Shown: positions 106-10,260 of the stretch, one piece after another | Layout: every line of letters starts with the position of its first letter | Position numbering within the stretch: position 1 is the first letter of the stretch | Source of the DNA: Candidatus Altarchaeum sp. | Lineage (GTDB): Archaea > Altiarchaeota > Altiarchaeia > Altiarchaeales > Altiarchaeaceae | Direction of reading: 5' to 3' | DNA length: 10,813 nucleotides | NCBI GenBank assembly: GCA_018260615.1 | Contig: JAGWDQ010000039.1 | Span: 1 to 10,813, forward strand | The notes under the pieces: generated by a model | Seen by the model: the letters and a program-made list of their open reading frames with translations, nothing else | Database searches by the model: none | Told to the model about the DNA's origin: nothing | Made by a program: the position numbers and the translations under genes

Positions 106-867
106 TTATAAAATTTTCGGAAGAATATATAAAAATTTATCCCTCTTAATTTCAACATCAATTCCATAGACATTTTTTATATTTTCTTCGGTTAATACCT
201 CTTCGGGATTTCCTGTTGCCAAAATTTTTCCTTCATCCATTAATATCAGGAAATCGCAAAACATCGCTGCCAGATTTAAATCATGCAAAGCACAAACAAC
301 CATTATTCCCTGCTTTGTCAGTTGCTTAAATATTTTTAATGTCTCAATCTGATATTTTATGTCAAGCTGTGATATTGGCTCATCTGCGAATAAAATTTTT
401 GGCTCCTGTGCTAATGCCTTTGCTATTACCGCCCGCTGTTTTTCTCCGCCTGAAATTTCGGTAATTGATTTGTCCTTAAATTTTAAGGTATCGGTAAATT
501 TTAATCCGTTTTCAACAATTTCCCTGTCCTTCTTGCTTTCCTTTTGGAGCCGTTTCAGATAAGGAATTCTTCCCAACATAACATAGTCAAACACAGAAAA
601 GGGATAAAACGATGAATTTTGCGGAACATAAGCAATGACTTTTGCGATTTCCGCATAAGAAATTTCTGCTATATTTTTATTTCCGATAAAAATTTCACCT
701 TTTGCGGGCTTTAAAATTTTACTCATAAGTTTCAGCAAAGTTGTCTTTCCTGCCCCGTTAGGTCCTATAATTCCGTAAAATTTTCCATCCTCTAATTTAA
801 AGGTTATTCCGTCAATAATTTTTGTATTATTGTATTTAAAATGTAAATCATTAACAACAATTTTCAT
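106..867 (-). CDS. btuD: Cobalamin/iron-chelate ABC transporter ATP-binding subunit (BtuD/FepC/FecE family), 253 aa
   Basis: Walker A GPNGAGKTT, Q-loop YVPQ, signature ISGGEKQRAVIAKALAQ, Walker B LFADEP, H-loop ALHDLNLAA, and the C-terminal GNPEEVLTEENIKNVYG typical of this family. B12 specificity is inferred from the cobO/btuF context. Confidence 0.9.
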   Translation of the reverse strand: MKIVVNDLHFKYNNTKIIDGITFKLEDGKFYGIIGPNGAGKTTLLKLMSKILKPAKGEIFIGNKNIAEISYAEIAKVIAYVPQNSSFYPFSVFDYVMLGRIPYLKRLQKESKKDREIVENGLKFTDTLKFKDKSITEISGGEKQRAVIAKALAQEPKILFADEPISQLDIKYQIETLKIFKQLTKQGIMVVCALHDLNLAAMFCDFLILMDEGKILATGNPEEVLTEENIKNVYGIDVEIKRDKFLYILPKIL

Positions 868-1331: not shown

Positions 1332-2354
1332 TTATGTAAAATATTCGTATTTCTTTTTTCTTAATAAATATATAAACAAAGGTGCGCCTACCATTGCTGT
1401 AATTGCTCCCACCGGAATTTCAACTGGTATTGCAATTGTTCTGGCAAGTGTATCACAAACAAGCATAAATATTCCTCCGCTCATCATTGAAAAAGGAATC
1501 AAAATTTTATGATTTGAACCAAATATAATCCTGACGACATGCGGAATTACAAGTCCGACAAATCCGATAATTCCGGCAACTGATACGGCAACTGATGTTA
1601 ATAGTGTTGCCAGCAAAATTAAAATTTTCTTCAGATTTTCCGTATCTATTCCGAGATGTTTTGCCTCTTCTTCTCCGAATAACACAGCATTCATATCCCT
1701 TGAAAAAAAATAAAACAAAAATGTGCAAACCAAAACTATCGGAAATAAAATTTTGACATCATCCCATCCACTATGCGCAAAATTTCCGAACAGCCAGGAC
1801 AAAATCCCGTGCAGTTTTTCTGATTCTGTAAGGGTCATCATAATCATAATGAGTGCTGAAAACAAAGTTCCTACGATAATTCCGGAGAGGAGTAATGTTA
1901 ATGTAGGCGTTGTGTTTTTCACCCTTGCAACATAGTATGTGATTAGCACTGCAAAAATTCCTCCGGAAAATGCAAATACTGAAACGGAAGAAAATCCGAA
2001 AAACAGGAAATCAACATAAAAAAATATGCCTGAAAATGTTGCAATTACTACTCCGAAAGCGGATCCGCCTGATATTCCCAAAAGGTATGGCTCTACCAGA
2101 GGATTCCTGAAAATTGCCTGTAAAACAACACCCGAAAGTGCGAGGGATATTCCAACGAGAATGTCTGCAATTATCCTTGGAAGACGGACATTGAATATTA
2201 TAAAATTTTCCGTATCGTTTCCATGCCCCGTTAGTATGTTCCAGACCTTTTCTACAGGATATTCTGCCGCACCAACTGATAATGAAACCAGGACAGCAAG
2301 TATGAGGATAAAAATCAGAACTATTCCTGATGTAAATAGGGAAAATTTTTTCAT
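1332..2354 (-). CDS. btuC: Cobalamin/iron-chelate ABC transporter permease (BtuC/FecCD family), 340 aa
   Basis: Motifs RLPRIIADILVGISLALSGVVLQAIFRNPLVEPYLLGISGG, GEEEAKHLGID, GIIGFVGLVIPHVVR and EIPVGAITAMVGAPLFIYLL, plus multiple hydrophobic helices. Confidence 0.92.
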   Translation of the reverse strand: MKKFSLFTSGIVLIFILILAVLVSLSVGAAEYPVEKVWNILTGHGNDTENFIIFNVRLPRIIADILVGISLALSGVVLQAIFRNPLVEPYLLGISGGSAFGVVIATFSGIFFYVDFLFFGFSSVSVFAFSGGIFAVLITYYVARVKNTTPTLTLLLSGIIVGTLFSALIMIMMTLTESEKLHGILSWLFGNFAHSGWDDVKILFPIVLVCTFLFYFFSRDMNAVLFGEEEAKHLGIDTENLKKILILLATLLTSVAVSVAGIIGFVGLVIPHVVRIIFGSNHKILIPFSMMSGGIFMLVCDTLARTIAIPVEIPVGAITAMVGAPLFIYLLRKKKYEYFT

Positions 2355-2382: not shown

Positions 2383-3852
2383 CTAAATTAAAAGCAAATA
2401 TTTTAAGGGAATCTTAATCACGAAGTCGTCAACTAACTCCAACTTACTGCTCCCAAAAACGAGCCCGTATTTTCCTTTAACTTTATTTTGCGTGTTCATC
2501 ACCTGCCTGATTTCTTCTTTATTAAATCCAACCTCAATAATAATTTTTGACTTGTCTTTTAGAGTCAAAATAAAATCTGCTCCCCCTTCGGAAATATCAT
2601 AAAACAAATCAACAGCCAGTTTATTCTTAAGACCTTCCACATAAATCAAAGCAAAATAATCTTCAAGCTTTTTTCCTTCTATTCCGGGCCAAAACTGATT
2701 ATCTAAAATTGCTGACCTCAAAGAGGATGTAATAAAAAGCAATTTCGGGGTCTTTCTTACCGGTCCATAAGTCATACCATAACTTTTAACTTTAATTAAA
2801 ACACCAGCCATTCCTAAGACCTCAATAAGCGAATCAAGGGTCTCAAATCTTTCTATTTTCAATGATTTTTTAATCTTTTCATAGCTAATAGTATCGGAGT
2901 TAGCCAAAAGATATAGTAAGTCGTAGATTTTTGCGATCGTCTGGGTTTTAAATTTTTCCATCCCTATAATATCTTTGGCAATAATGCTGTTTATCGCGGC
3001 CTTTATCATTTCCGTAGCTTTGACTTTGTTGGTAATTTTTATTGTAGAAGGTAATCCTCCATTTTCAAAAAATCCCTCTTCAACATTTGGCTGCAAATTA
3101 GCAAAAAATTTATCAATTTCCATTGCATATTGATTCAATCCAAGGTAAACTTCCCGGGCATCAGAAGAGTTAAAAATGATTTCATGAATTCCATCTTGCA
3201 AATTAGCAACAGGCAGTTTTTTATTGTATTTTAGAATTAAAAATTCACTAAACTTCATGGGAAAAACTTCCATAACGGTTGTCCTTCTATAAAGATCCGG
3301 ATTCATTCTCAAACTGATCGCCGAAGAACCAGTCGCAATAACAAATAAATTTTTATGTCCTTTTGTGCTGTCAAATAAAACCTTTAAGAAAAGTCCCCAG
3401 TTTTCATCGTAATGAACTTCATCAAGCAGAAGTAATAATTTTCTGTCTAATGAAACAAAGTTAAAGCCCTTTGCTTTTTCATAAAAATTAAAAAATTCAT
3501 TTAGTGAAATGTTGTTAAGTTTTAATTTACTTACATCTAAATAAAATATTTCTTCTAATTTGCCAATATTTTTTAAAATATTTTGATCATCCGGTTTTAA
3601 AAACCTTTCTATTTTATAAAGTTGCATTAATAATGTTGTCTTACCAGTTCCTCTAATTCCGGGTAAAATCCAGATTTTTTCATATTCTTCAAGTTGGTTT
3701 TCCAAAAATTTTTCAATAAGGATTTTAAATTTGGAAAAAATATCCCGGGTTGGCAAAAGATTTCTTTCTTCATCATAAATATATCCGTCTGCCTGCTGAG
3801 ATACAACATTCAACCAGTTTTGATAAAAAATTTTTATTTTTTCCTCATCCAT
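2383..3852 (-). CDS. AAA+ superfamily ATPase (AAA_14 + DUF4143-like C-terminal region, COG1373-type), 489 aa
   Basis: Walker A GIRGTGKTT, Walker B LLLLDEVHY, VIATGSSA, MEVFPMKFSEF, GGLP, and the C-terminal TPKLLFITSSL and GADFIL...IIEVG segments typical of this family. Confidence 0.85.
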   Translation of the reverse strand: MDEEKIKIFYQNWLNVVSQQADGYIYDEERNLLPTRDIFSKFKILIEKFLENQLEEYEKIWILPGIRGTGKTTLLMQLYKIERFLKPDDQNILKNIGKLEEIFYLDVSKLKLNNISLNEFFNFYEKAKGFNFVSLDRKLLLLLDEVHYDENWGLFLKVLFDSTKGHKNLFVIATGSSAISLRMNPDLYRRTTVMEVFPMKFSEFLILKYNKKLPVANLQDGIHEIIFNSSDAREVYLGLNQYAMEIDKFFANLQPNVEEGFFENGGLPSTIKITNKVKATEMIKAAINSIIAKDIIGMEKFKTQTIAKIYDLLYLLANSDTISYEKIKKSLKIERFETLDSLIEVLGMAGVLIKVKSYGMTYGPVRKTPKLLFITSSLRSAILDNQFWPGIEGKKLEDYFALIYVEGLKNKLAVDLFYDISEGGADFILTLKDKSKIIIEVGFNKEEIRQVMNTQNKVKGKYGLVFGSSKLELVDDFVIKIPLKYLLLI

Positions 3853-4008: not shown

Positions 4009-4980
4009 TTATTCATTATTTGTCCCGCAAACCCTGCAAAACGAATTTTTATGCTCAATTCTCGCTCCGCATCCTTTACATTTAATTTCGTCTTCTTTTG
4101 CTTCCTTTACATTTCCAAAAATTTCCTTAAAAATTTCATAATAATAAAGATGCTCTTTATCCCTTATAATTACTTCGTCTTCTTTTTCGTATGTCAATTT
4201 TCTTTGTATAAAATCCGCATCCTTAATTTTATCATCAAATATATCTGTAAGCATTGTCGTTCCGCTCCCATATTCGATAGGTGTCTTTTTTCTCCATACA
4301 AAGTCATTCGGAAGTAAATTTATGTATGCCTTTCTCAAAATCCATTTTCCAACATCGCCCTTTATTTTCATATCATCATCAATGGAAATCGCATATTTCT
4401 TTACTTCATCTGAAAGATAAGGAGTAAAAATTTTCATATTAAAAAACCTTCCGAAGTCGTTTGAAGAAAAGTGCATATTTTTCCACATTTTTTTCGCATA
4501 ATTCTCTCTTTCTTCCTTCTCCATTTTTATTAAAAAGTCATACCCGAAGAACAATTCATCCGCACCATCACCAGTCATCACACTATTTGTCCATTTCTTT
4601 GCAAATTTTAGGACTGTATATATCGCAACGCTATTCCTGATTTCCATCGGGTCAAATACGCCTAAAATTTTTATTGTTTCTCTTAAATTTTCAATTAAAT
4701 TTTCCTCGTCAATATTCAAAACATAATGTTCTATACCTAAAATCGGACACAACCTTTTAGCGTATTCCGCATCATCTCCGGTTTTAAATTTCAATGTCCA
4801 TGCCTTCATGTTGTTATTGTTTTTTGAAGCAATATAAGCCAAAACTGATGTATCAAGTCCCGCTGACAATAAAATCCCGTCACAACCATCGCTTATGTTT
4901 CTCTTTACTTCGTTTTCTAATAACTCCCTTAATTTTACAATTTCGGTTTCAATTCCCATTTTTTTATATCTAAAATCCAT
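4009..4980 (-). CDS. Asparagine-synthase C-terminal (synthetase)-domain-only PP-loop amidoligase with C-terminal Zn ribbon, 323 aa (start may be the second Met at 4959)
   Basis: PP-loop ILLSAGLDTSVLA, VMTGDGADELFFGY (AsnB SGEGADELFGGY-like), KWILRKAY...LPNDFVWRKKTPIEYGSG, and a C-terminal CKGC-x10-CRVC. There is no N-terminal Ntn glutaminase domain. Confidence 0.85.
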   Translation of the reverse strand: MDFRYKKMGIETEIVKLRELLENEVKRNISDGCDGILLSAGLDTSVLAYIASKNNNNMKAWTLKFKTGDDAEYAKRLCPILGIEHYVLNIDEENLIENLRETIKILGVFDPMEIRNSVAIYTVLKFAKKWTNSVMTGDGADELFFGYDFLIKMEKEERENYAKKMWKNMHFSSNDFGRFFNMKIFTPYLSDEVKKYAISIDDDMKIKGDVGKWILRKAYINLLPNDFVWRKKTPIEYGSGTTMLTDIFDDKIKDADFIQRKLTYEKEDEVIIRDKEHLYYYEIFKEIFGNVKEAKEDEIKCKGCGARIEHKNSFCRVCGTNNE

Positions 4981-5624
4981 TTATCCGAATAAATTTTAAT
5001 GTGTTCGGTAAAATTTTGGACATCGCTTTCAAGTATTTCAAGCCGCTTTTTAAATATTGGTCCGTCAATGACAAGCGTATGAAATTCTCCGTTTTCGCCG
5101 CATGGGTCTATGCCTGCTTCCGTTGTATCGCGGATAAAATTTTCCATTGTTTCCTTGTTTATGGTTCTTCCGGTTAAAAATTTTGCACCCTCAATGCAAT
5201 TAACAATTACAGCTTCAAATCCCAGAGACACAAATTTATTTAAAATTTCTTCCCTGTTTCTTTTCCACAGCGGTTCATAATAGTCCATGTTTAATTCCGC
5301 ACTTTTTTTCTTTATCCAGTCAAGATGTTCTTCCAGATCAATATCTCCTGCAATCATGCCAGTAATTCCTTTTTCCTTTAATTTCAAAACCTCTGAATTA
5401 AAGTCATTTTCGTAATTTTCCCATGATGTAACCTTCTGAATTACCGGAATTCTAATTGCTTCTGCCTGGGATTTTATTATTTCTCTGTTTATTCCGTGAC
5501 TTCTTCCGTCAACGGCAAAATTTAAGAGAAATTTGACATCCATGTTGTTTTTCATCGCCTCATAACATGCTAAATAACTGTCTTTTCCTCCGCTCCACGA
5601 ACAAAACCACATTTTATTTGGCAT
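4935..5624 (-). CDS. Diphthine--ammonia ligase-like (Dph6/DUF71/COG2102) PP-loop ATP-binding protein, 229 aa (start may be Met5 at 5612)
   Basis: SWSGGKDS PP-loop, RSHG, AGDIDLEEH, YEPLWKRNRE and GIDPCGENGEFHTLVIDGPIFK are family hallmarks. Confidence 0.92.
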   Translation of the reverse strand: MPNKMWFCSWSGGKDSYLACYEAMKNNMDVKFLLNFAVDGRSHGINREIIKSQAEAIRIPVIQKVTSWENYENDFNSEVLKLKEKGITGMIAGDIDLEEHLDWIKKKSAELNMDYYEPLWKRNREEILNKFVSLGFEAVIVNCIEGAKFLTGRTINKETMENFIRDTTEAGIDPCGENGEFHTLVIDGPIFKKRLEILESDVQNFTEHIKIYSDKWILDIKKWELKPKL

Positions 5625-5689: not shown

Positions 5690-6235
5690 TTAATATTCTA
5701 TTCCCTTTCTTCTTTCAGTTCCGTTATCGTAAGGATGCTTAACCTTTTCAATTTTACTCACATAATCCACAATTTCAATAAGTTCTTTCAGTTTTTCATC
5801 CGGACATCTTCCAGTCAGGATTAATTCTAATGTCTCTGGCTTTGAATTGAGCAAATCAAGAATTTCAGAAATGTTTAAATAGCCATCTCTTAAAGAGATT
5901 AAAATTTCATCCAAAATTAAGAGGTCATAATTCTTGGGATAAATTTCCTCCCCGATAAATTTTACCCCTTCCGGACAATCTCTTCTTGCATTTTTCGCTA
6001 ATTCGTCTTCGCTTTTGAAGGGATTAAGAACTTTGCAATATTTTGCATAAGCAAATACATCAACTCCAATTCCCTTCAGAATTTTAAATTCGGAATAAAA
6101 TTTTTCTATATCTTTATGAAAACTTATCCAGCAAACCCTTAAATTATTTCCTTTTGCTCTTACTGCCAGTCCGATTGCCGCTGTTGTTTTTCCTTTTCCA
6201 TCCCCAGTATAAATATGGGTCAAACCGTTTTCCAT
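5690..6235 (-). CDS. cobO: Cob(I)yrinic acid a,c-diamide / cob(I)alamin adenosyltransferase (CobA/CobO/BtuR type), ~181 aa from the likely start at 6235
   Basis: GLTHIYTGDGKGKTTAAIGLAVRA (inverted P-loop), YDLLILDE, LELILTGR and KHPYDNG...KGIEY. The ORF-track extension to 6388 overlaps the 88-aa ORF and lacks family motifs. The ATG at 6235 sits 10 nt after that ORF's stop. Confidence 0.9.
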   Translation of the reverse strand: MENGLTHIYTGDGKGKTTAAIGLAVRAKGNNLRVCWISFHKDIEKFYSEFKILKGIGVDVFAYAKYCKVLNPFKSEDELAKNARRDCPEGVKFIGEEIYPKNYDLLILDEILISLRDGYLNISEILDLLNSKPETLELILTGRCPDEKLKELIEIVDYVSKIEKVKHPYDNGTERRKGIEY

Positions 6236-6245
6236 TCTGATTTTT

Positions 6246-6512
6246 TTACTTTTGATTTTTATCATCCTTTTTATTTTTTGATTCGTCTGAAAGAAGCATT
6301 GACATATAAAAAGCAGCAACCGTATCGTTCTGTGCTTGAACAACATCTTCCTGAGTAAAATTTTTGCCTTCCTGCACTTTTGAAACAAACTCGCTAATAT
6401 TATTATGAGAAACCCGTAATGCCTGAACGACCTGTTTTGCTACTATCGTTTTAAATTTAGCGGATTCTTTTTCCTCATCATCTTCACATTCATTATCTAT
6501 TTTTTCCTCCAT
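6246..6512 (-). CDS. Hypothetical 88-aa soluble protein with an acidic N-terminus, embedded in the corrinoid operon
   Basis: The start overlaps the btuF-like 3' end by 16 nt and the stop lies 10 nt before the cobO start. It fills the gap exactly and has a natural-looking composition. I recognise no family. Confidence 0.7.
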   Translation of the reverse strand: MEEKIDNECEDDEEKESAKFKTIVAKQVVQALRVSHNNISEFVSKVQEGKNFTQEDVVQAQNDTVAAFYMSMLLSDESKNKKDDKNQK

Positions 6513-8533
6513 TTTAAGAAAACTATTAAAATTACTGCAAGGGCTATAAAAAGATATAAAAATAAATCATTATAATTTTTGTTAATGTCTTTTTTTGTTT
6601 CATTAGGTGTTTCGCCATAAGTTTCATTTTCAGTTATGTTATCTTTTTCAGCGGCAACTGAAATTTGTTCCGATGGAATATAACCTTCTTTTTCTGCTTT
6701 AAGAGTTAATGATGTCGTTGTAACTTTATATTCAATTTTTCCGTTATCGTTTGCTGTTTGTTCAACGCCGTTGATCGTAACTTTCGCGTTTGGAACCGGA
6801 TTTTTGTTTTCGCCAGTTACTGTGATAGTAATTGTATCCCTCTGCTTCACTTTTTCGGCAACATCTATTTTTAATTTTCCTATTGCTTTGACATCAAATA
6901 AAATGCTTGAGCCCTTGTAGTCATTTGCTGATGTAGAGGCATCTAAACCTGTTTGTATTATTTTAATTTGTTTTGTGACAATTCCATTTGCATCTGTCTT
7001 TAATTTTTCTCCGTAAATTTCAACTTCTGCATCCTGGACGGATTTTCCATCTTTTGTTGTTACTTTAAATTTAAATTCGTCTCCGTATTTCTCGCCTGAA
7101 ATCTTTGTTATGTTTAAAGTTCCAATATAAACATTAATTGTCTTTGTGAAATTTTTAAAGCCGGATTTTGAAATTGTTATTTCTGCACTTCCATAATCGG
7201 GAATTGTTAATGTTACATCTCCGTTTTCATCCGATTTAAATTTCCTTGCTTCGTTTTTAACTTTTATTGTTATCTCAACATCCTTAAAATTTCCACCTAA
7301 ATTTAATGTTTGTTTCAGACCAAAAATTTCTGAAATGTTAAAAATTTCCGGTGGAAAGACATTTTCTTTCGCATTCAATGGTTTGTTTTCGCTATCTGCA
7401 TAAACATATTTAGCGGGCGATGTTCCGTCCCCTCCTGAACTGCCATGTCCTGCAGAAATTTTTTCAGAAGATTTTTCCTTACATGTTCCGTTTTCACAAT
7501 ACTCTGTTTTACATTCTTTACCAAATACACAAATTTCATCATTTAATTTAAGACATATATGTATTGAAGAAATACATTTTCCTGATGTGCAATCAGCATT
7601 GTTTTCACAATATTTCGGAATATTTTTATATTGATATGAAATTATCATTCCCACAACACATTCCATAGCATCAATTACCCTCGGAGAATCCCTTGAAATA
7701 ATATCTTCGTTAATTTTATAAACATTATTATTTTTTACCGCTTTTAAAATTTTAAAATTAGGATTGTTTATTACTTCTCCATAATAATCAAATGAGTATC
7801 CTATATCTGGTGATGGATCTGAAACAATTATAATATCAGGGTCTCTGTGGATAAGTGTTTCAACAGAAACCGGTTGCCACTTATTTATATCAGAATAAGT
7901 ATTTATCCCGCCGGATGTTTCAATTATATCGTTTATAAAGGTGTTTTTTCCAGATACCCATAAAGGATTTATCCCTGCAATCTCTGCAACAGACGGAGTT
8001 GAAAAGATTAATGCTTTTTTTGTTTTCTTTACTTCTTCTGTTCTCTCTTTCATGTTGTTTATTAAATTTTCACCTTCATTTTTCTTTCCCAAATACTTGG
8101 CAATTGTTCTTATGTTGTAATACATTCCGTCAAAATTTTCAGATATATTAATTCTGATAATAGTAATATTTGCGTCCTGCAATAATTTAATATCATCCGG
8201 ATCTGTTAAATCATGAGCAAAAACCAAATCAGGTTTTAAGGAAATAATTTTTTCAATACTTGGAGTAACATAGCCACCAATTTTTGTTTTACTTTTTGCA
8301 TCTTCCGGATAATTACAAAATATTGTAACTCCTATAAGATAATCCTCCCCGTTTATAGCATAAATATCTTCTGTTATTGATGGTGATATCGAAATAACTT
8401 TTTCATAATGGACACATGAATTGTTTTTTAGATATGTTCCTTCATCACAGGTTATGTTTTCCCCCAATGAAATTTGAATAAATGCAAATACAATAAAAAT
8501 TCCAAATATTCCCAACAATAAATTTTTTCTCAT
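6497..8533 (-). CDS. btuF: BtuF-type substrate-binding protein fused to Cys-rich repeats, Ig-like stalk repeats and a C-terminal TM anchor, 678 aa
   Basis: N-terminal signal peptide. Residues ~44-298 carry KVISISPSITEDIYAI...IGVTIFCNYP...SIEKIISLKPDLVF...VSVETLIHRDPDII...SPRVIDAME (Peripla_BP_2/BtuF). These are followed by Cys-rich repeats, beta-rich repeats with [ST]D-x-NG-like turns, and the C-terminal LFLYLFIALAVILIVFL-KWRKK. Confidence 0.85.
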   Translation of the reverse strand: MRKNLLLGIFGIFIVFAFIQISLGENITCDEGTYLKNNSCVHYEKVISISPSITEDIYAINGEDYLIGVTIFCNYPEDAKSKTKIGGYVTPSIEKIISLKPDLVFAHDLTDPDDIKLLQDANITIIRINISENFDGMYYNIRTIAKYLGKKNEGENLINNMKERTEEVKKTKKALIFSTPSVAEIAGINPLWVSGKNTFINDIIETSGGINTYSDINKWQPVSVETLIHRDPDIIIVSDPSPDIGYSFDYYGEVINNPNFKILKAVKNNNVYKINEDIISRDSPRVIDAMECVVGMIISYQYKNIPKYCENNADCTSGKCISSIHICLKLNDEICVFGKECKTEYCENGTCKEKSSEKISAGHGSSGGDGTSPAKYVYADSENKPLNAKENVFPPEIFNISEIFGLKQTLNLGGNFKDVEITIKVKNEARKFKSDENGDVTLTIPDYGSAEITISKSGFKNFTKTINVYIGTLNITKISGEKYGDEFKFKVTTKDGKSVQDAEVEIYGEKLKTDANGIVTKQIKIIQTGLDASTSANDYKGSSILFDVKAIGKLKIDVAEKVKQRDTITITVTGENKNPVPNAKVTINGVEQTANDNGKIEYKVTTTSLTLKAEKEGYIPSEQISVAAEKDNITENETYGETPNETKKDINKNYNDLFLYLFIALAVILIVFLKWRKK

Positions 8534-8544
8534 CCTGTTCTTTT

Positions 8545-10260
8545 CTATTTTTCTATTATTATTTTTTCAATCAATTTTAGAATCTCAAGTAAATTTATGT
8601 CTTCTTTTCTTATACATTCTTCGGAATAATCGGAATAATTTTTTCCGGATAAATATTCCAACGCAGTTACAACATCAAATATGTCAATTAAATTATCATT
8701 ATCAAAATCACCTTCCACACACCATGAATAATTTTCCACACTCTTTCCTATTGTTGCATTAAGCAAAATAACATCTCCGTCCTCTGCACAATAATGTCCG
8801 CCGACACCGCACCAATTATTTGAATTTCCTCCGGGTCCCATACCTATTTCCATTGATGTCCAATTGGTTTCATTAATTTTGTGCATTTCAAATCCCCACC
8901 ACCAACTCCAATCAGATGGAGAGCAGGTATTGTTGATGCAATTTAAGAAGAATCCTGATGAATAATCAGTTGTTCCACTGAAATTTATTCCACTTGCATC
9001 TAAAATTTCCTTTCCGTTTGCATATTCATTAACTTTAACACATTTCTTTATGGTCTCATTATTTGGATATTTTATAACTAATCCAACGGTTATGTTTTTT
9101 GCTGGCGATTTACAAACTTTATTAACACCTTCATCAACACATTTGTTGCTTATACATTCTGAATTTGATAAACAATGACAAATGTTGGTACAGGAATAAT
9201 TAAAACCCGCAGAAATATCTTTATAATTTAGTCCCAAAGTGCAGGAATTATTATCTCCGGAATTTTCAGTTGCATTGATTGTTCCGTTAAATACCGCAAT
9301 ATCTATACTATTTTCACAAATTTTATTCGAAATGATTGTATTATTTGTAGATGAATTTATATAGATTCCATATTCAAAATTTCCCAAAATTGTATTATAA
9401 GCAATAGTATTATTTGTTACATTTTGGGGATAACACACATTATTTACGGGATGACATTTTGTCAAAAAAATCCCGTTTTTGTTGTTTTTTATTGTATTGT
9501 TATAAATTTCGTTAAAACCTGAACCATAATAAAGATATATTCCAAAATATGTGTTGTTATAAATAGTGTTATTTAAAATTTTGTTGTGATTAGGCCCTGC
9601 CCATCCAAAAATTATTCCCCACTTATTGTTGTAAAGATTATTGTTTCTTAATGTGTTATTTTGTGTTGCACTTCCATAAAATCCAATTCCTCCTTTGTTG
9701 TTATAACCGGTATTATTTTCTATTACATTGTTATTTCCAGGAGATGAATCTATTCCGTCAAGTTTTATTGAATAACATGTATTGTTTATTATTTTACTAT
9801 CGGATGCACCGGAAAGAGAAATTCCGCAGCTTGACATGTGATGAACCATGTTATTTATTATTGTATAATTTTTCATACTTCCGCCCATTGATAAAGGAAC
9901 AGGAATAATTCCATTGCTAAAATTACTTATTTCAAAATTTTTTATAGTGATATTTTCTTTATTATTTGTAATAATTCCAACAGTATACACATCTCCTAAA
10001 TAGTTAATTTCATGCCCTGTTAAATTGTATCCGTTTCCATCTAATATTATGTTATGTGCATTCACTATTAAACCATTTCCCTGACATGTTAAACTACAAT
10101 TCAAAACACAACTTTCATTAACATAATCTCCGCATTTATAAATTGTATTTGTATTTGCACCGATACATCCGCAGTCCGCATTTACATAAGATGCAAACAA
10201 AACAAATAAAATTCCGATTATTCCTGTTTCAATTGCCCCTTTTTTAAATTTTATATCCAT
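8545..10260 (-). CDS. Secreted surface protein: right-handed beta-helix (NosD/CASH-like) + Cys-rich linker + DUF4430/transcobalamin-C-terminal-like domain + dockerin-like tail, 571 aa
   Basis: Signal peptide ending ...YVNA|D; IILDGNGYNLTG and repeated I-x-NN-T/GI-x-L units. Residues ~389-500 read GFFLNCIN...WWWGF...HYCAEDGDVILL (DUF4430-like by eye), and residues ~514-571 read GDFDNDNLIDIFDVVTALEYL (dockerin-like). More than 20 N-x-S/T sequons. Domain calls are by motif recognition only. Confidence 0.8.
   Translation of the reverse strand: MDIKFKKGAIETGIIGILFVLFASYVNADCGCIGANTNTIYKCGDYVNESCVLNCSLTCQGNGLIVNAHNIILDGNGYNLTGHEINYLGDVYTVGIITNNKENITIKNFEISNFSNGIIPVPLSMGGSMKNYTIINNMVHHMSSCGISLSGASDSKIINNTCYSIKLDGIDSSPGNNNVIENNTGYNNKGGIGFYGSATQNNTLRNNNLYNNKWGIIFGWAGPNHNKILNNTIYNNTYFGIYLYYGSGFNEIYNNTIKNNKNGIFLTKCHPVNNVCYPQNVTNNTIAYNTILGNFEYGIYINSSTNNTIISNKICENSIDIAVFNGTINATENSGDNNSCTLGLNYKDISAGFNYSCTNICHCLSNSECISNKCVDEGVNKVCKSPAKNITVGLVIKYPNNETIKKCVKVNEYANGKEILDASGINFSGTTDYSSGFFLNCINNTCSPSDWSWWWGFEMHKINETNWTSMEIGMGPGGNSNNWCGVGGHYCAEDGDVILLNATIGKSVENYSWCVEGDFDNDNLIDIFDVVTALEYLSGKNYSDYSEECIRKEDINLLEILKLIEKIIIEK

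What the first reader, a model, noticed from the sequence alone, without database searches (positions are those of the whole stretch)
4009..4980. Glutaminase-less asparagine-synthase-like enzyme with a Zn ribbon inside a B12 salvage operon: candidate corrinoid amide-repair enzyme
Seen: only the ATP-pyrophosphatase (synthetase) domain is present, with a variant PP-loop SAGLDT and a C-terminal CxxC-x10-CxxC. It overlaps the Dph6-like gene, which suggests translational coupling. Established: AsnB-type synthetase domains adenylate a carboxylate and convert it to an amide, and canonical corrin amidation uses CbiA/CobB and CbiP/CobQ, which belong to a different family. Inference: this protein may use ammonia to amidate carboxylated (hydrolysed or incomplete) corrinoid side chains, a role I do not know to be described for this family.
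Basis: partly seen in the sequence, partly recalled or inferred. Interest (0 to 1): 0.75.

Follow-up and report, generated by a model that had tools for sequence, protein, structure and literature searches.

The report
Glutaminase-less AsnB-like corrinoid amidoligase candidate
A short relative of asparagine synthetase, encoded in a vitamin-B12 uptake operon, is probably an undescribed ammonia-using enzyme that amidates the B12 ring, and it occurs almost only in microbes that lack the normal, complete enzyme for that step (CbiP/CobQ).

Summary
Window 4009-4980 (- strand) encodes a 323-aa protein with only the AsnB synthetase (PP-loop) domain, SAGLDT, and a C-terminal CxxC-x10-CxxC. It overlaps the upstream Dph6-like gene by 46 nt, inside a BtuF/CobO/.../BtuC/BtuD cluster.

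- **Neighbour:** it carries the published 'DUF71-B12' signature (de Crecy-Lagard 2012).
- **Family:** the AsnB-like protein belongs to a conserved family of about 320 aa with an invariant Zn ribbon.
- **Context:** 36 of 80 genomic loci lie beside DUF71-B12 and/or late cobamide genes. Cobalamin riboswitches head five of eight bacterial operons tested. Single loci place it next to CbiA or CobQ.
- **Phyletic pattern in corrin producers (CbiC+):** the family occurs in 1 of 14 genomes with full-length CobQ and in 58 of 67 without it. The latter include 16 Bathyarchaeia with CbiA but no CobQ, and 37 of 37 genomes, apparently Nitrososphaeria, whose CobQ lacks its glutaminase half.
- **In-operon swap:** a Thermodesulfovibrio operon has CobQ where related operons have this gene.
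- **This genome:** it has CobO, CbiB, CobD, CobU-like, CobS and CobT, but no CbiA, CbiP, CbiC or CbiZ was found.

Best reading (0.55): an NH3-dependent, adenylating amidoligase for corrinoid side chains that replaces CbiP. No biochemistry exists. The scan reached the same reading earlier on another genome (e1-731450).

The parts
4009..4980 (-). AsnB-like synthetase-domain-only protein with a Zn ribbon (P0001, 323 aa): candidate corrinoid side-chain amidoligase.
4846..4866 (-). PP-loop S39-A-G-L-D-T-S45, the ATP pyrophosphatase motif. The family consensus is SGGLDTS.
4555..4575 (-). T136-G-D-G-A-D-E142, aligned to AsnB SGEGSDE. D138 is invariant where AsnB has the catalytic Glu (E348 in E. coli, E364 in human).
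4285..4287 (-). K232, the equivalent of ASNS Lys-466 / AsnB Lys-449, which contacts the phosphate of the acyl-adenylate. Invariant in the family.
4027..4080 (-). C-terminal Zn ribbon, C301-x2-C304-x10-C315-x2-C318. Invariant in the family and absent from AsnB.
4935..5624 (-). DUF71-B12 subgroup PP-loop ATPase (P0002, Dph6 paralogue). It overlaps the AsnB-like gene by 46 nt (4935-4980).
5079..5099 (-). G176-E-N-G-E-F-H182, the DUF71-B12 signature. It has His where Dph6 has Glu.
5690..6265 (-). CobO/CobA-type ATP:corrinoid adenosyltransferase. The start is uncertain (Met at 6265 or 6235). This enzyme catalyses the step that precedes CbiP in the canonical pathway.
6497..8533 (-). BtuF-like substrate-binding protein with a long C-terminal extension of Ig-like/CarboxypepD_reg domains.
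1332..2354 (-). BtuC/FecCD-type ABC permease.
106..867 (-). BtuD-like corrinoid ABC transporter ATPase.

Best explanation
P0001 is an ammonia-dependent PP-loop amidoligase acting on corrinoids. By analogy with the AsnB synthetase domain, it binds ATP at the SAGLDT loop and adenylates a free acetate or propionate side-chain carboxylate of a corrin. The likely substrate is adenosyl-cobyrinic acid a,c-diamide or a partly amidated corrinoid taken up by BtuFCD and adenosylated by the adjacent CobO. Free NH3 then displaces AMP to give the amide. It has no glutaminase domain. The enzyme would thus supply cobyric acid for CbiB and fill the CbiP/CobQ step, alone or together with the translationally coupled DUF71-B12 enzyme. 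Shown here: the domain content, the conserved adenylation residues, the operon and riboswitch context, and the phyletic pattern. Inferred: the substrate, the positions amidated, the nitrogen donor, and how the work is divided with DUF71-B12.
For: (1) Chemistry. The model has the AsnB synthetase fold (TM 0.76 to ASNS). The family conserves the PP-loop, D138/D141/E142 (= ASNS E364/D367/E368) and K232 (= K466). Asp-400 of the aspartate alpha-amino pocket has no acidic counterpart (F171-S-S).

(2) Context. 36 of 80 genome loci of the family have DUF71-B12 adjacent and/or B12 genes within 6 kb. On the tree, 28 of the 36 rows in the half that holds P0001 are B12-linked. The gene sits in late-pathway operons in L010, L012, L014-16, L104 and L112. 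Cobalamin riboswitches head the operons in 5 of 8 bacterial loci tested. None of the 80 loci contains CobQ. One locus is a three-gene module of DUF71-B12, AsnB-like and CbiA. Another has the gene 107 bp from CobQ.

(3) Phyletic pattern. Of 19 CbiC+ Bathyarchaeia, 16 lack CobQ but have this family; a permuted CbiA was confirmed in one and the same ~520-550-aa ORF is present in the others. The one genome that has CobQ and neither PP-loop gene is G108. In 60 further CbiC+ Thermoproteota, 0 of 12 with full-length CobQ have the family, against 37 of 37 with a glutaminase-less CobQ. Combined: 1 of 14 versus 58 of 67, Fisher p = 1.6e-8.

(4) Displacement. The Thermodesulfovibrio yellowstonii operon carries CobQ where related operons carry this gene.

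(5) Pathway hole. The window's own genome has CobO, CbiB, CobD, CobU-like, CobS and CobT, but no CbiA, CbiP, CbiC or CbiZ was found.
Against: There is no biochemical or genetic test. The phyletic counts come from a few large clades, so they represent few independent events, and most genomes are incomplete MAGs. The Nitrososphaerota sampled keep a CobQ synthetase half alongside this gene and show no local B12 context, so 'replacement' may be partial there. Two genomes have both full-length CobQ and the family (G001, G182). T. yellowstonii has DUF71-B12 together with CobQ, so the partner's role is not simply 'half of CbiP'. A pure salvager such as this Altiarchaeum, which has no CbiA, would need under-amidated corrinoids from outside, and their availability is unknown. 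44 of the 80 loci show no B12 context.
Confidence: 0.55

Rival explanations
1. The protein works in cobamide salvage but not as a side-chain amidase. Together with DUF71-B12 it would provide a CbiZ-independent route for remodelling cobamides or cobinamide (the 2012 proposal for DUF71-B12), or it would act on the aminopropanol linker or the lower ligand.
For: DUF71-B12 and CbiZ anticorrelate in bacteria (PMC3541065). All but one of the bacterial carriers sampled here lack CbiZ. The window's genome has CbiB but no CbiZ was found. Activase-like radical SAM genes co-occur in some clusters, and L012 adds an AhbD/NirJ-like one.
Against: PP-loop enzymes adenylate carboxylates or oxo groups, and no amidohydrolase is known in the fold (a reviewer's point). 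The family co-occurs with CbiZ in 14 of 49 carrier genomes and in the same operon in L010 and L012. This reading does not explain the complementarity with CobQ in de novo producers, or the DUF71-B12/AsnB-like/CbiA module. CbiB, CobD, CobT and CobS are present alongside it, so none of those steps is vacant.
Confidence: 0.2
2. It is an ammonia-dependent asparagine synthetase (Asp + NH3 + ATP gives Asn) that merely happens to lie in the operon.
For: The best sequence and structure matches are AsnB/ASNS. D138, D141, E142 and K232 are retained.
Against: Scores are far below the AsnB equivalog cut-offs (148.8 versus 499; 123.6 versus 267.1). The same genome has a full-length AsnB. Conserved B12 operons and riboswitches span both domains of life. 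The Asp-400 equivalent is lost and the catalytic Glu is invariably Asp. The invariant Zn ribbon is absent from AsnB.
Confidence: 0.05
3. It amidates, or ligates an amine to, a non-corrinoid carboxylate (another cofactor, peptide or metabolite). On this reading the B12 linkage reflects co-regulation only, at least in the clades without B12 context.
For: 44 of the 80 loci have no B12 genes nearby, including all Nitrososphaerota and some Asgard and Bathyarchaeia loci.
Against: Archaeal pathway genes are often scattered. Six of the sampled carriers whose own AsnB-like locus lacks DUF71-B12 (four with no B12 context at all) still have a DUF71-B12-type gene elsewhere in the genome. The family tracks the state of CobQ even where it is unlinked.
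Confidence: 0.12

Closest known systems
Asparagine synthetase B / human ASNS, C-terminal synthetase domain (PF00733; PDB 1CT9, 6GQ3)
   Same: The fold matches (TM 0.76, 24-25% identity). It has the PP-loop, a GxGxDE motif, and the Lys that contacts the acyl-adenylate phosphate. The presumed chemistry is the same: carboxylate adenylation followed by attack of NH3.
   Different: It has no N-terminal Ntn glutaminase domain. The catalytic Glu is Asp. The Asp-400 (E. coli D384) pocket residue is missing. It has an extra invariant C-terminal Zn ribbon. It scores below the AsnB equivalog cut-offs. Its genomic context is cobamide, not amino-acid, metabolism.
Cobyric acid synthase CbiP/CobQ (EC 6.3.5.10; TIGR00313)
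   Same: The proposed pathway step is the same (amidation of corrin side chains b, d, e, g). It occupies the same place in late-pathway operons. The two are close to mutually exclusive when CobQ is full-length.
   Different: There is no homology. CbiP is a DTBS/MinD-type P-loop enzyme that, from general knowledge, activates carboxylates by phosphorylation and draws NH3 from a fused triad glutaminase. This protein is a PP-loop adenylating enzyme with no glutaminase.
DUF71-B12 subgroup of COG2102/PF01902 (de Crecy-Lagard et al. 2012, PMC3541065)
   Same: It is also a stand-alone PP-loop ATPase found in btuFCD/cbiB clusters of archaea and bacteria. Here it is the overlapping neighbour (P0002, signature GENGEFH).
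   Different: It has a different fold subfamily (Dph6-like). It was predicted to substitute for bacterial CbiZ. That paper mentions AsnB only as GAT-II + AsnB_C + DUF71 fusions and does not report this stand-alone AsnB-like partner.
Beta-lactam synthetase and carbapenam synthetase (PDB 1JGT, 1Q15)
   Same: These are AsnB-derived synthetase domains that have been recruited to a non-asparagine substrate.
   Different: They keep a dead N-terminal domain and form intramolecular lactams. Identity is only 17-20%.
NH3-dependent NAD synthetase NadE and QueC
   Same: These are small PP-loop enzymes that amidate a cofactor carboxylate with free ammonia.
   Different: The relationship is distant (E about 1e-3), with different substrate-binding regions.

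Membership tests
AsnB, glutamine-hydrolysing asparagine synthetase (EC 6.3.5.4) | N-terminal Ntn (class II) glutaminase domain with Cys-1 | tested here: not met
   The protein starts at the synthetase domain. NF006949 matches model positions 205-514 only and TIGR01536 from position 227.
AsnB, glutamine-hydrolysing asparagine synthetase (EC 6.3.5.4) | Score at or above the curated equivalog cut-off | tested here: not met
   148.8 bits against a cut-off of 499 (NF006949), and 123.6 against 267.1 (TIGR01536).
AsnB, glutamine-hydrolysing asparagine synthetase (EC 6.3.5.4) | [quoted passage not shown] | tested here: inconclusive
   E364 is replaced by an invariant D138 and D367 is kept as D141. D400 has no acidic equivalent (F171-S172-S173), and the alignment of this stretch differs between the E. 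coli and human templates.
Pfam PF00733 Asn_synthase (PP-loop synthetase domain) | Domain match above the gathering score; SGGxDS-type PP-loop; Lys-449/466 equivalent | tested here: met
   139.7 bits against a cut-off of 21. The loop is SAGLDT and K232 is invariant.
AsnB-C-only + Zn-ribbon family ('asparagine synthase-related protein', ~305-350 aa) | Single domain; the invariant residues S39 G41 L42 D43 T44, G137 D138 D141 E142, K212, R216, K232 and E236; a C-terminal CxxC...CxxC | tested here: met
   Alignments A1 and A2. P0001 scores 483 bits to the family profile, against 114 bits for the genome's other AsnB-C-only paralogue.
CbiP/CobQ cobyric acid synthase | DTBS/MinD-like ATPase domain plus GATase_3 domain (homology) | tested here: not met
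   P0001 has no PF01656 or PF07685 match. The claim is functional analogy only.
CbiP/CobQ cobyric acid synthase | Catalyses ATP-dependent amidation of adenosyl-cobyrinic acid a,c-diamide | not testable with these tools
   This needs an enzyme assay or complementation.
DUF71-B12 (for the neighbour P0002) | GE-x-GE-[FY]-H signature in place of the Dph6 EGGE/DxE motif; a second DUF71 copy beside the true Dph6; B12 gene cluster | tested here: met
   P0002 reads GENGEFH. The genome's Dph6 on contig C81 reads GEGGEYE. All 31 DUF71 ORFs in the B12/AsnB-like loci for which this region is present carry His (one more is cut off by its contig end).

The most novel reading that the evidence does not exclude
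A PP-loop, adenylating, ammonia-dependent enzyme (AsnB-like, with or without DUF71-B12) is a non-orthologous cobyric acid synthase. It would be the missing CbiP of Bathyarchaeia and of many corrinoid salvagers. It would also be the partner of the glutaminase-less CobQ found in all 37 such CbiC+ genomes sampled (apparently ammonia-oxidising Nitrososphaeria), so a key step of environmental B12 production would run on a previously unrecognised enzyme.
Probability: 0.5. Interest if true: 0.8.

Novelty: new variant of a known kind. Interest (0 to 1): 0.72.

Why it matters
CbiP/CobQ is commonly treated as a core marker when cobamide producers are predicted from genomes (general knowledge). If this AsnB-like family does that job, whole lineages now scored as lacking the step (16 of 19 CbiC+ Bathyarchaeia sampled) would be complete producers. 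The role of the truncated CobQ in the Nitrososphaerota sampled would need re-examination. It would also explain why many salvagers keep CbiB without CbiZ, a question left open in 2012, and would add a second, mechanistically different (adenylation rather than phosphorylation) solution to corrin amidation. The hypothesis is directly testable with one purified protein and a known substrate.

Tried and rejected
- **Complex prediction.** Complex prediction of P0001 with P0002, using alignments A2 and A3, gave no verdict (score 0.15). It counts neither for nor against binding.
- **Fused forms.** A search for longer homologues of P0001 (567-2000 aa) found none at E <= 1e-30. This is weak evidence.
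- **Radical SAM partner.** An activase-like gene of about 245 aa lies beside the pair in L010, L012 and L014-16, but it is absent from the window and was not found in the genome by tblastn. It is therefore not an obligatory partner.
- **Literature.** Eight full-text searches found no paper that links an AsnB-like protein to corrin amidation or to B12 clusters, apart from the 2012 DUF71 paper. Subscription journals are not covered.
- **Thermodesulfovibrionales sample.** Nine CobQ+ and six CobQ- genomes all lacked the family; only G018 (CobQ-) has it. This is compatible with the hypothesis but adds little.
- **Unavailable genomes.** Whole-genome searches of the records behind L111-L113 were not possible because they are not held. 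Absence of the family from T. yellowstonii outside the operon is therefore untested.
- **PF07685 (GATase_3).** As a CbiA/CbiP marker it is too unspecific, since it matches in all control genomes. TIGR00313, TIGR00379 and NF004921 were used instead.
- **Pocket inspection.** The AF2 model's active-site pocket could not be inspected because no coordinates are available in the script box.

Full report
**1. What is in the window**

All long ORFs lie on the minus strand. From high to low coordinates they are:
- a NosD-like beta-helix protein (8545-10260);
- a 678-aa BtuF-like binding protein with C-terminal Ig-like domains (6497-8533);
- a small acidic ORF (6246-6512);
- CobO (5690-~6265);
- a Dph6-like PF01902 protein (4935-5624);
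- the AsnB-like ORF of the finding (4009-4980);
- an AAA_14/DUF4143 ATPase (2383-3852);
- BtuC (1332-2354) and BtuD (106-867).

The protein has the synthetase domain only: PF00733 at E 2.4e-40, and the AsnB model matched from position 205 onwards. It carries SAGLDT at residues 39-44 and C301-x2-C304-x10-C315-x2-C318. It overlaps the upstream gene by 46 nt. Closest homologues are named Candidatus Altiarchaeum / Altiarchaeales.

**2. The neighbour is already in the literature; this protein is not**

P0002 carries GENGEFH. De Crecy-Lagard et al. (2012, PMC3541065) defined a 'DUF71-B12' subgroup of COG2102 by this motif, ENGE[F/Y]H, where Dph6 has EGGE/DxE. They showed it clusters with btuFCD (75 of 102 genes) and cbiB (18 of 102), and cautiously proposed that it substitutes for bacterial CbiZ. 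A 2016 review still lists its function as unknown.

The window's genome has a separate true Dph6 on contig C81 (225 bits, GEGGEYE).

The 2012 paper mentions AsnB only as GAT-II + AsnB_C + DUF71 fusions in a few archaea. It does not report a stand-alone AsnB-like partner. No other paper in the searchable library makes the link.

**3. The family**

P0001 has thousands of homologues of about 305-350 aa, at 42-94% identity among the top hits. They occur in Altiarchaeales, Bathyarchaeia, Nitrososphaerota, Asgard archaea, Hadarchaeota, Methanosarcinales/Methanophagales, Dehalococcoidia, Clostridia, Desulfobacterales, Omnitrophota and Nitrospirota.

In 61 sequences the following are invariant:
- the PP-loop residues S39, G41, L42, D43, T44;
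- G137, D138, D141, E142;
- K212, R216, K232, E236;
- all four Zn-ribbon cysteines.

Only P0001 and its Altiarchaeum relative P0016 have Ala for the second Gly of the PP-loop in alignment A1.

Against ASNS, the motif S362-G-E364-G-S-D367-E368 aligns with T136-G-D138-G-A-D141-E142, and Lys-466 aligns with K232. The adenylation machinery is therefore intact. Asp-400, one of three acidic residues lining the aspartate alpha-amino pocket (PMC6748925), falls in a stretch that reads F171-S-S with no acidic residue. This argues against aspartate as the substrate, but the alignment there is not secure.

The genome also encodes a full-length AsnB (629-aa ORF on C82). A different AsnB-C-only paralogue lies on C53. 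It has 28% identity, no Zn ribbon, and only 114 bits to the family profile, against 483 bits for P0001.

**4. Gene neighbourhoods**

In closely related Altiarchaeum contigs the order is BtuF, radical SAM, CobO, DUF71-B12, AsnB-like, a small ORF, BtuC, BtuD, CbiB.

A bacterial-type contig has TonB-dependent receptor, TonB, DUF71-B12, AsnB-like, radical SAM, CobU, CobT, CobS, CobD, CbiB, CbiZ, BtuF.

Archaeal contigs place the pair among BtuCDF, CbiB, CbiZ, CobT, CobD, CobZ, CobS and CobY. Another bacterial contig has CobO, CobC, CobU, CobT, CobS, CbiB, CobD, AsnB-like, DUF71-B12, BtuFCD and a TonB-dependent receptor.

Survey of 80 loci fetched from species genomes:
- 23 have a DUF71 gene within 150 bp, and both gene orders occur.
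- 31 have B12 genes within 6 kb.
- 36 have one or the other; among loci with at least 4 kb on both sides the figure is 20 of 43.
- All 31 DUF71 ORFs in these loci for which the motif region is present carry the His signature; one more is cut off by its contig end.

On a maximum-likelihood tree the half that contains P0001 has 36 rows, of which 28 are B12-linked, including all the bacterial groups. A Nitrososphaerota clade of 18 rows shows no B12 context.

Cobalamin riboswitches (RF00174, 49-114 bits) head the operons that contain the gene in L010, L042, L045, L065 and L073. That is five of the eight bacterial loci scanned.

Membership in the cobamide regulon is therefore well supported.

**5. 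Which step?**

*The window's genome (87% complete).* It has CobO, CbiB and CobD (C66), CobT (C144), CobS (C96) and a CobU-like gene (C79). No CbiP/CobQ, CbiA, CbiC or CbiZ was found. This is the canonical late pathway with one hole, the amidation step between CobO and CbiB. The two PP-loop genes lie directly behind cobO.

*The 49 carrier genomes.* A CobQ match over the curated cut-off occurs in only 2, and CbiC in 10.

*Bathyarchaeia class sample (151 genomes).* Nineteen have CbiC.
- Only two have canonical CobQ (G108, G182).
- Sixteen of the other seventeen carry the AsnB-like family, and fifteen of those also carry a DUF71-B12-type gene.
- G108, which has CobQ, has neither gene.
- In G182 the AsnB-like gene lies 107 bp from CobQ on the same strand.
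- The family is present in 17 of 19 CbiC+ genomes and in 21 of 132 CbiC- genomes (p = 3e-10).

The ORF of about 505-550 aa beside CbiC in the CobQ-less genomes is a circularly permuted cobyrinic acid a,c-diamide synthase. This was confirmed in G175 (NF004921, 499 bits). It sits in a cluster with HemA, HemB, HemC, the CysG N-terminal domain, a CbiX-CbiC fusion, CbiD, CbiG, CobD and CbiB. CbiA is therefore present, and it is specifically CbiP that is missing.

*Sixty further CbiC+ genomes of the same phylum.*

| CobQ state | Genomes | With the AsnB-like family |
|---|---|---|
| Full-length | 12 | 0 |
| N-terminal synthetase half only (~290 aa, no glutaminase) | 37 | 37 |
| None found | 11 | 3 true members; 3 more have only a divergent AsnB-like gene |

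Combining both samples gives 1 of 14 against 58 of 67 (Fisher p = 1.6e-8). These counts reflect a handful of clades, so the number of independent events is small.

*In-operon evidence.*
- In Thermodesulfovibrio yellowstonii the operon (receptor, DUF71-B12, CobT, CobS, CobQ, CbiB, CobD, CobU, BtuF) carries a 493-aa CobQ. Related operons (L045, L112) carry the AsnB-like gene instead.
- None of the 80 AsnB-like loci contains CobQ.
- In one Bathyarchaeial genome the three genes DUF71-B12, AsnB-like and permuted CbiA form an isolated module between unrelated genes.

**6. Mechanism proposed**

The steps are inferred from family chemistry:
1. ATP binds at the PP-loop.
2. A corrin side-chain carboxylate is adenylated, with K232 and the D138/D141/E142 cluster playing the roles of their ASNS counterparts.
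3. Free ammonia attacks and releases AMP. There is no glutaminase domain.

In two Bathyarchaeia a CN-hydrolase gene lies divergently next to the gene and could be an ammonia donor, as in NadE. This is speculative.

The product would be cobyric acid, or an intermediate towards it, for CbiB.

How the work is divided with DUF71-B12 is open. The two genes are tightly coupled, yet DUF71-B12 also co-occurs with CobQ. The Nitrososphaerota sampled have the AsnB-like gene with a truncated CobQ and no DUF71-B12-type gene.

In a pure salvager such as this Altiarchaeum, the substrates would have to be imported under-amidated or deamidated corrinoids.

**7. Rivals**

- A CbiZ-like remodelling role (the 2012 idea for the partner) fits the bacterial CbiZ anticorrelation. 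It is chemically awkward, it does not explain the CobQ pattern, and the family co-occurs with CbiZ in 14 carrier genomes and in two operons.
- A plain NH3-dependent asparagine synthetase is unlikely, given sub-threshold scores, a full-length AsnB in the same genome, riboswitch control and the Zn ribbon.
- A non-corrinoid substrate in the unlinked clades cannot be excluded.

**8. Verdict**

It is a new functional variant of a known enzyme kind, resting on consistent but purely comparative evidence. An earlier report of this scan on another genome (e1-731450) reached the same reading. I tested the claim independently here.

Noticed in passing
Loci of G200-G408, G027, G030, G042, G043, G045, G048: Forty-three CbiC+ genomes have a CobQ of about 290 aa that matches only the N-terminal synthetase half of the model (positions 1 to ~250) and has no fused glutaminase domain: 37 in the phylum sample and 6 Nitrososphaerota named in their record titles. 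All of them also carry the AsnB-like family.
   Followed up: partly
L110:7216-8727 (-), L038:11022-12554 (+): Bathyarchaeia have a circularly permuted cobyrinic acid a,c-diamide synthase, with the GATase_3 domain first and the ATPase domain second (NF004921, 499 bits). The standard TIGR00379 and TIGR00313 models barely detect it.
   Followed up: partly
window 2383-3852 (-): An AAA_14 + DUF4143 ATPase gene lies between the AsnB-like gene and btuC. It is absent from the otherwise syntenic Altiarchaeum contigs L014-L016, so it looks like an insertion.
   Followed up: no
L014:6021-6752, L010:8954-9838, L012:5910-6653: A small activase-like radical SAM gene (about 245-295 aa, no curated family) recurs beside the PP-loop pair in B12 clusters. 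It is missing from the window, and tblastn did not find it in the genome.
   Followed up: partly
L012:4847-5908: An AhbD/NirJ-like radical SAM/SPASM gene, from a family that modifies tetrapyrrole side chains, lies inside an archaeal B12 salvage cluster next to CbiZ and the PP-loop pair.
   Followed up: no
L107:7865-8617 (+); L109:5601-6350 (-): A carbon-nitrogen hydrolase (PF00795, ~250 aa) is divergently adjacent to the AsnB-like gene in one Bathyarchaeial genome (L107). A 249-aa ORF in the same position in a second genome (L109) was not scanned. It could be a stand-alone ammonia donor, as in NadE.
   Followed up: no
window 6246-6512 (-): An 88-aa acidic ORF with no family match is 57% identical over 61 aa to a 133-aa ORF that follows the AsnB-like gene in L014. 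It is a conserved small protein of the cluster that has moved position.
   Followed up: no
window 6497-10260 (-): The BtuF-like binding protein has an extension of about 370 aa with Cys-rich and CarboxypepD_reg/Ig-like domains and a C-terminal membrane anchor. A NosD-like beta-helix protein precedes it. The same pair is present in L014 and L016.
   Followed up: no
G000:C53:~16850-17640 (-): The genome has a second glutaminase-less AsnB-like paralogue (SAGIDS, SGQGADE, no Zn ribbon, 28% identical to P0001). Its function is unknown.
   Followed up: partly
L111:9001-13318: In Thermodesulfovibrio yellowstonii, DUF71-B12 sits directly behind a TonB-dependent receptor, in one operon with a full-length CobQ. 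DUF71-B12 is therefore not simply a CobQ substitute.
   Followed up: partly
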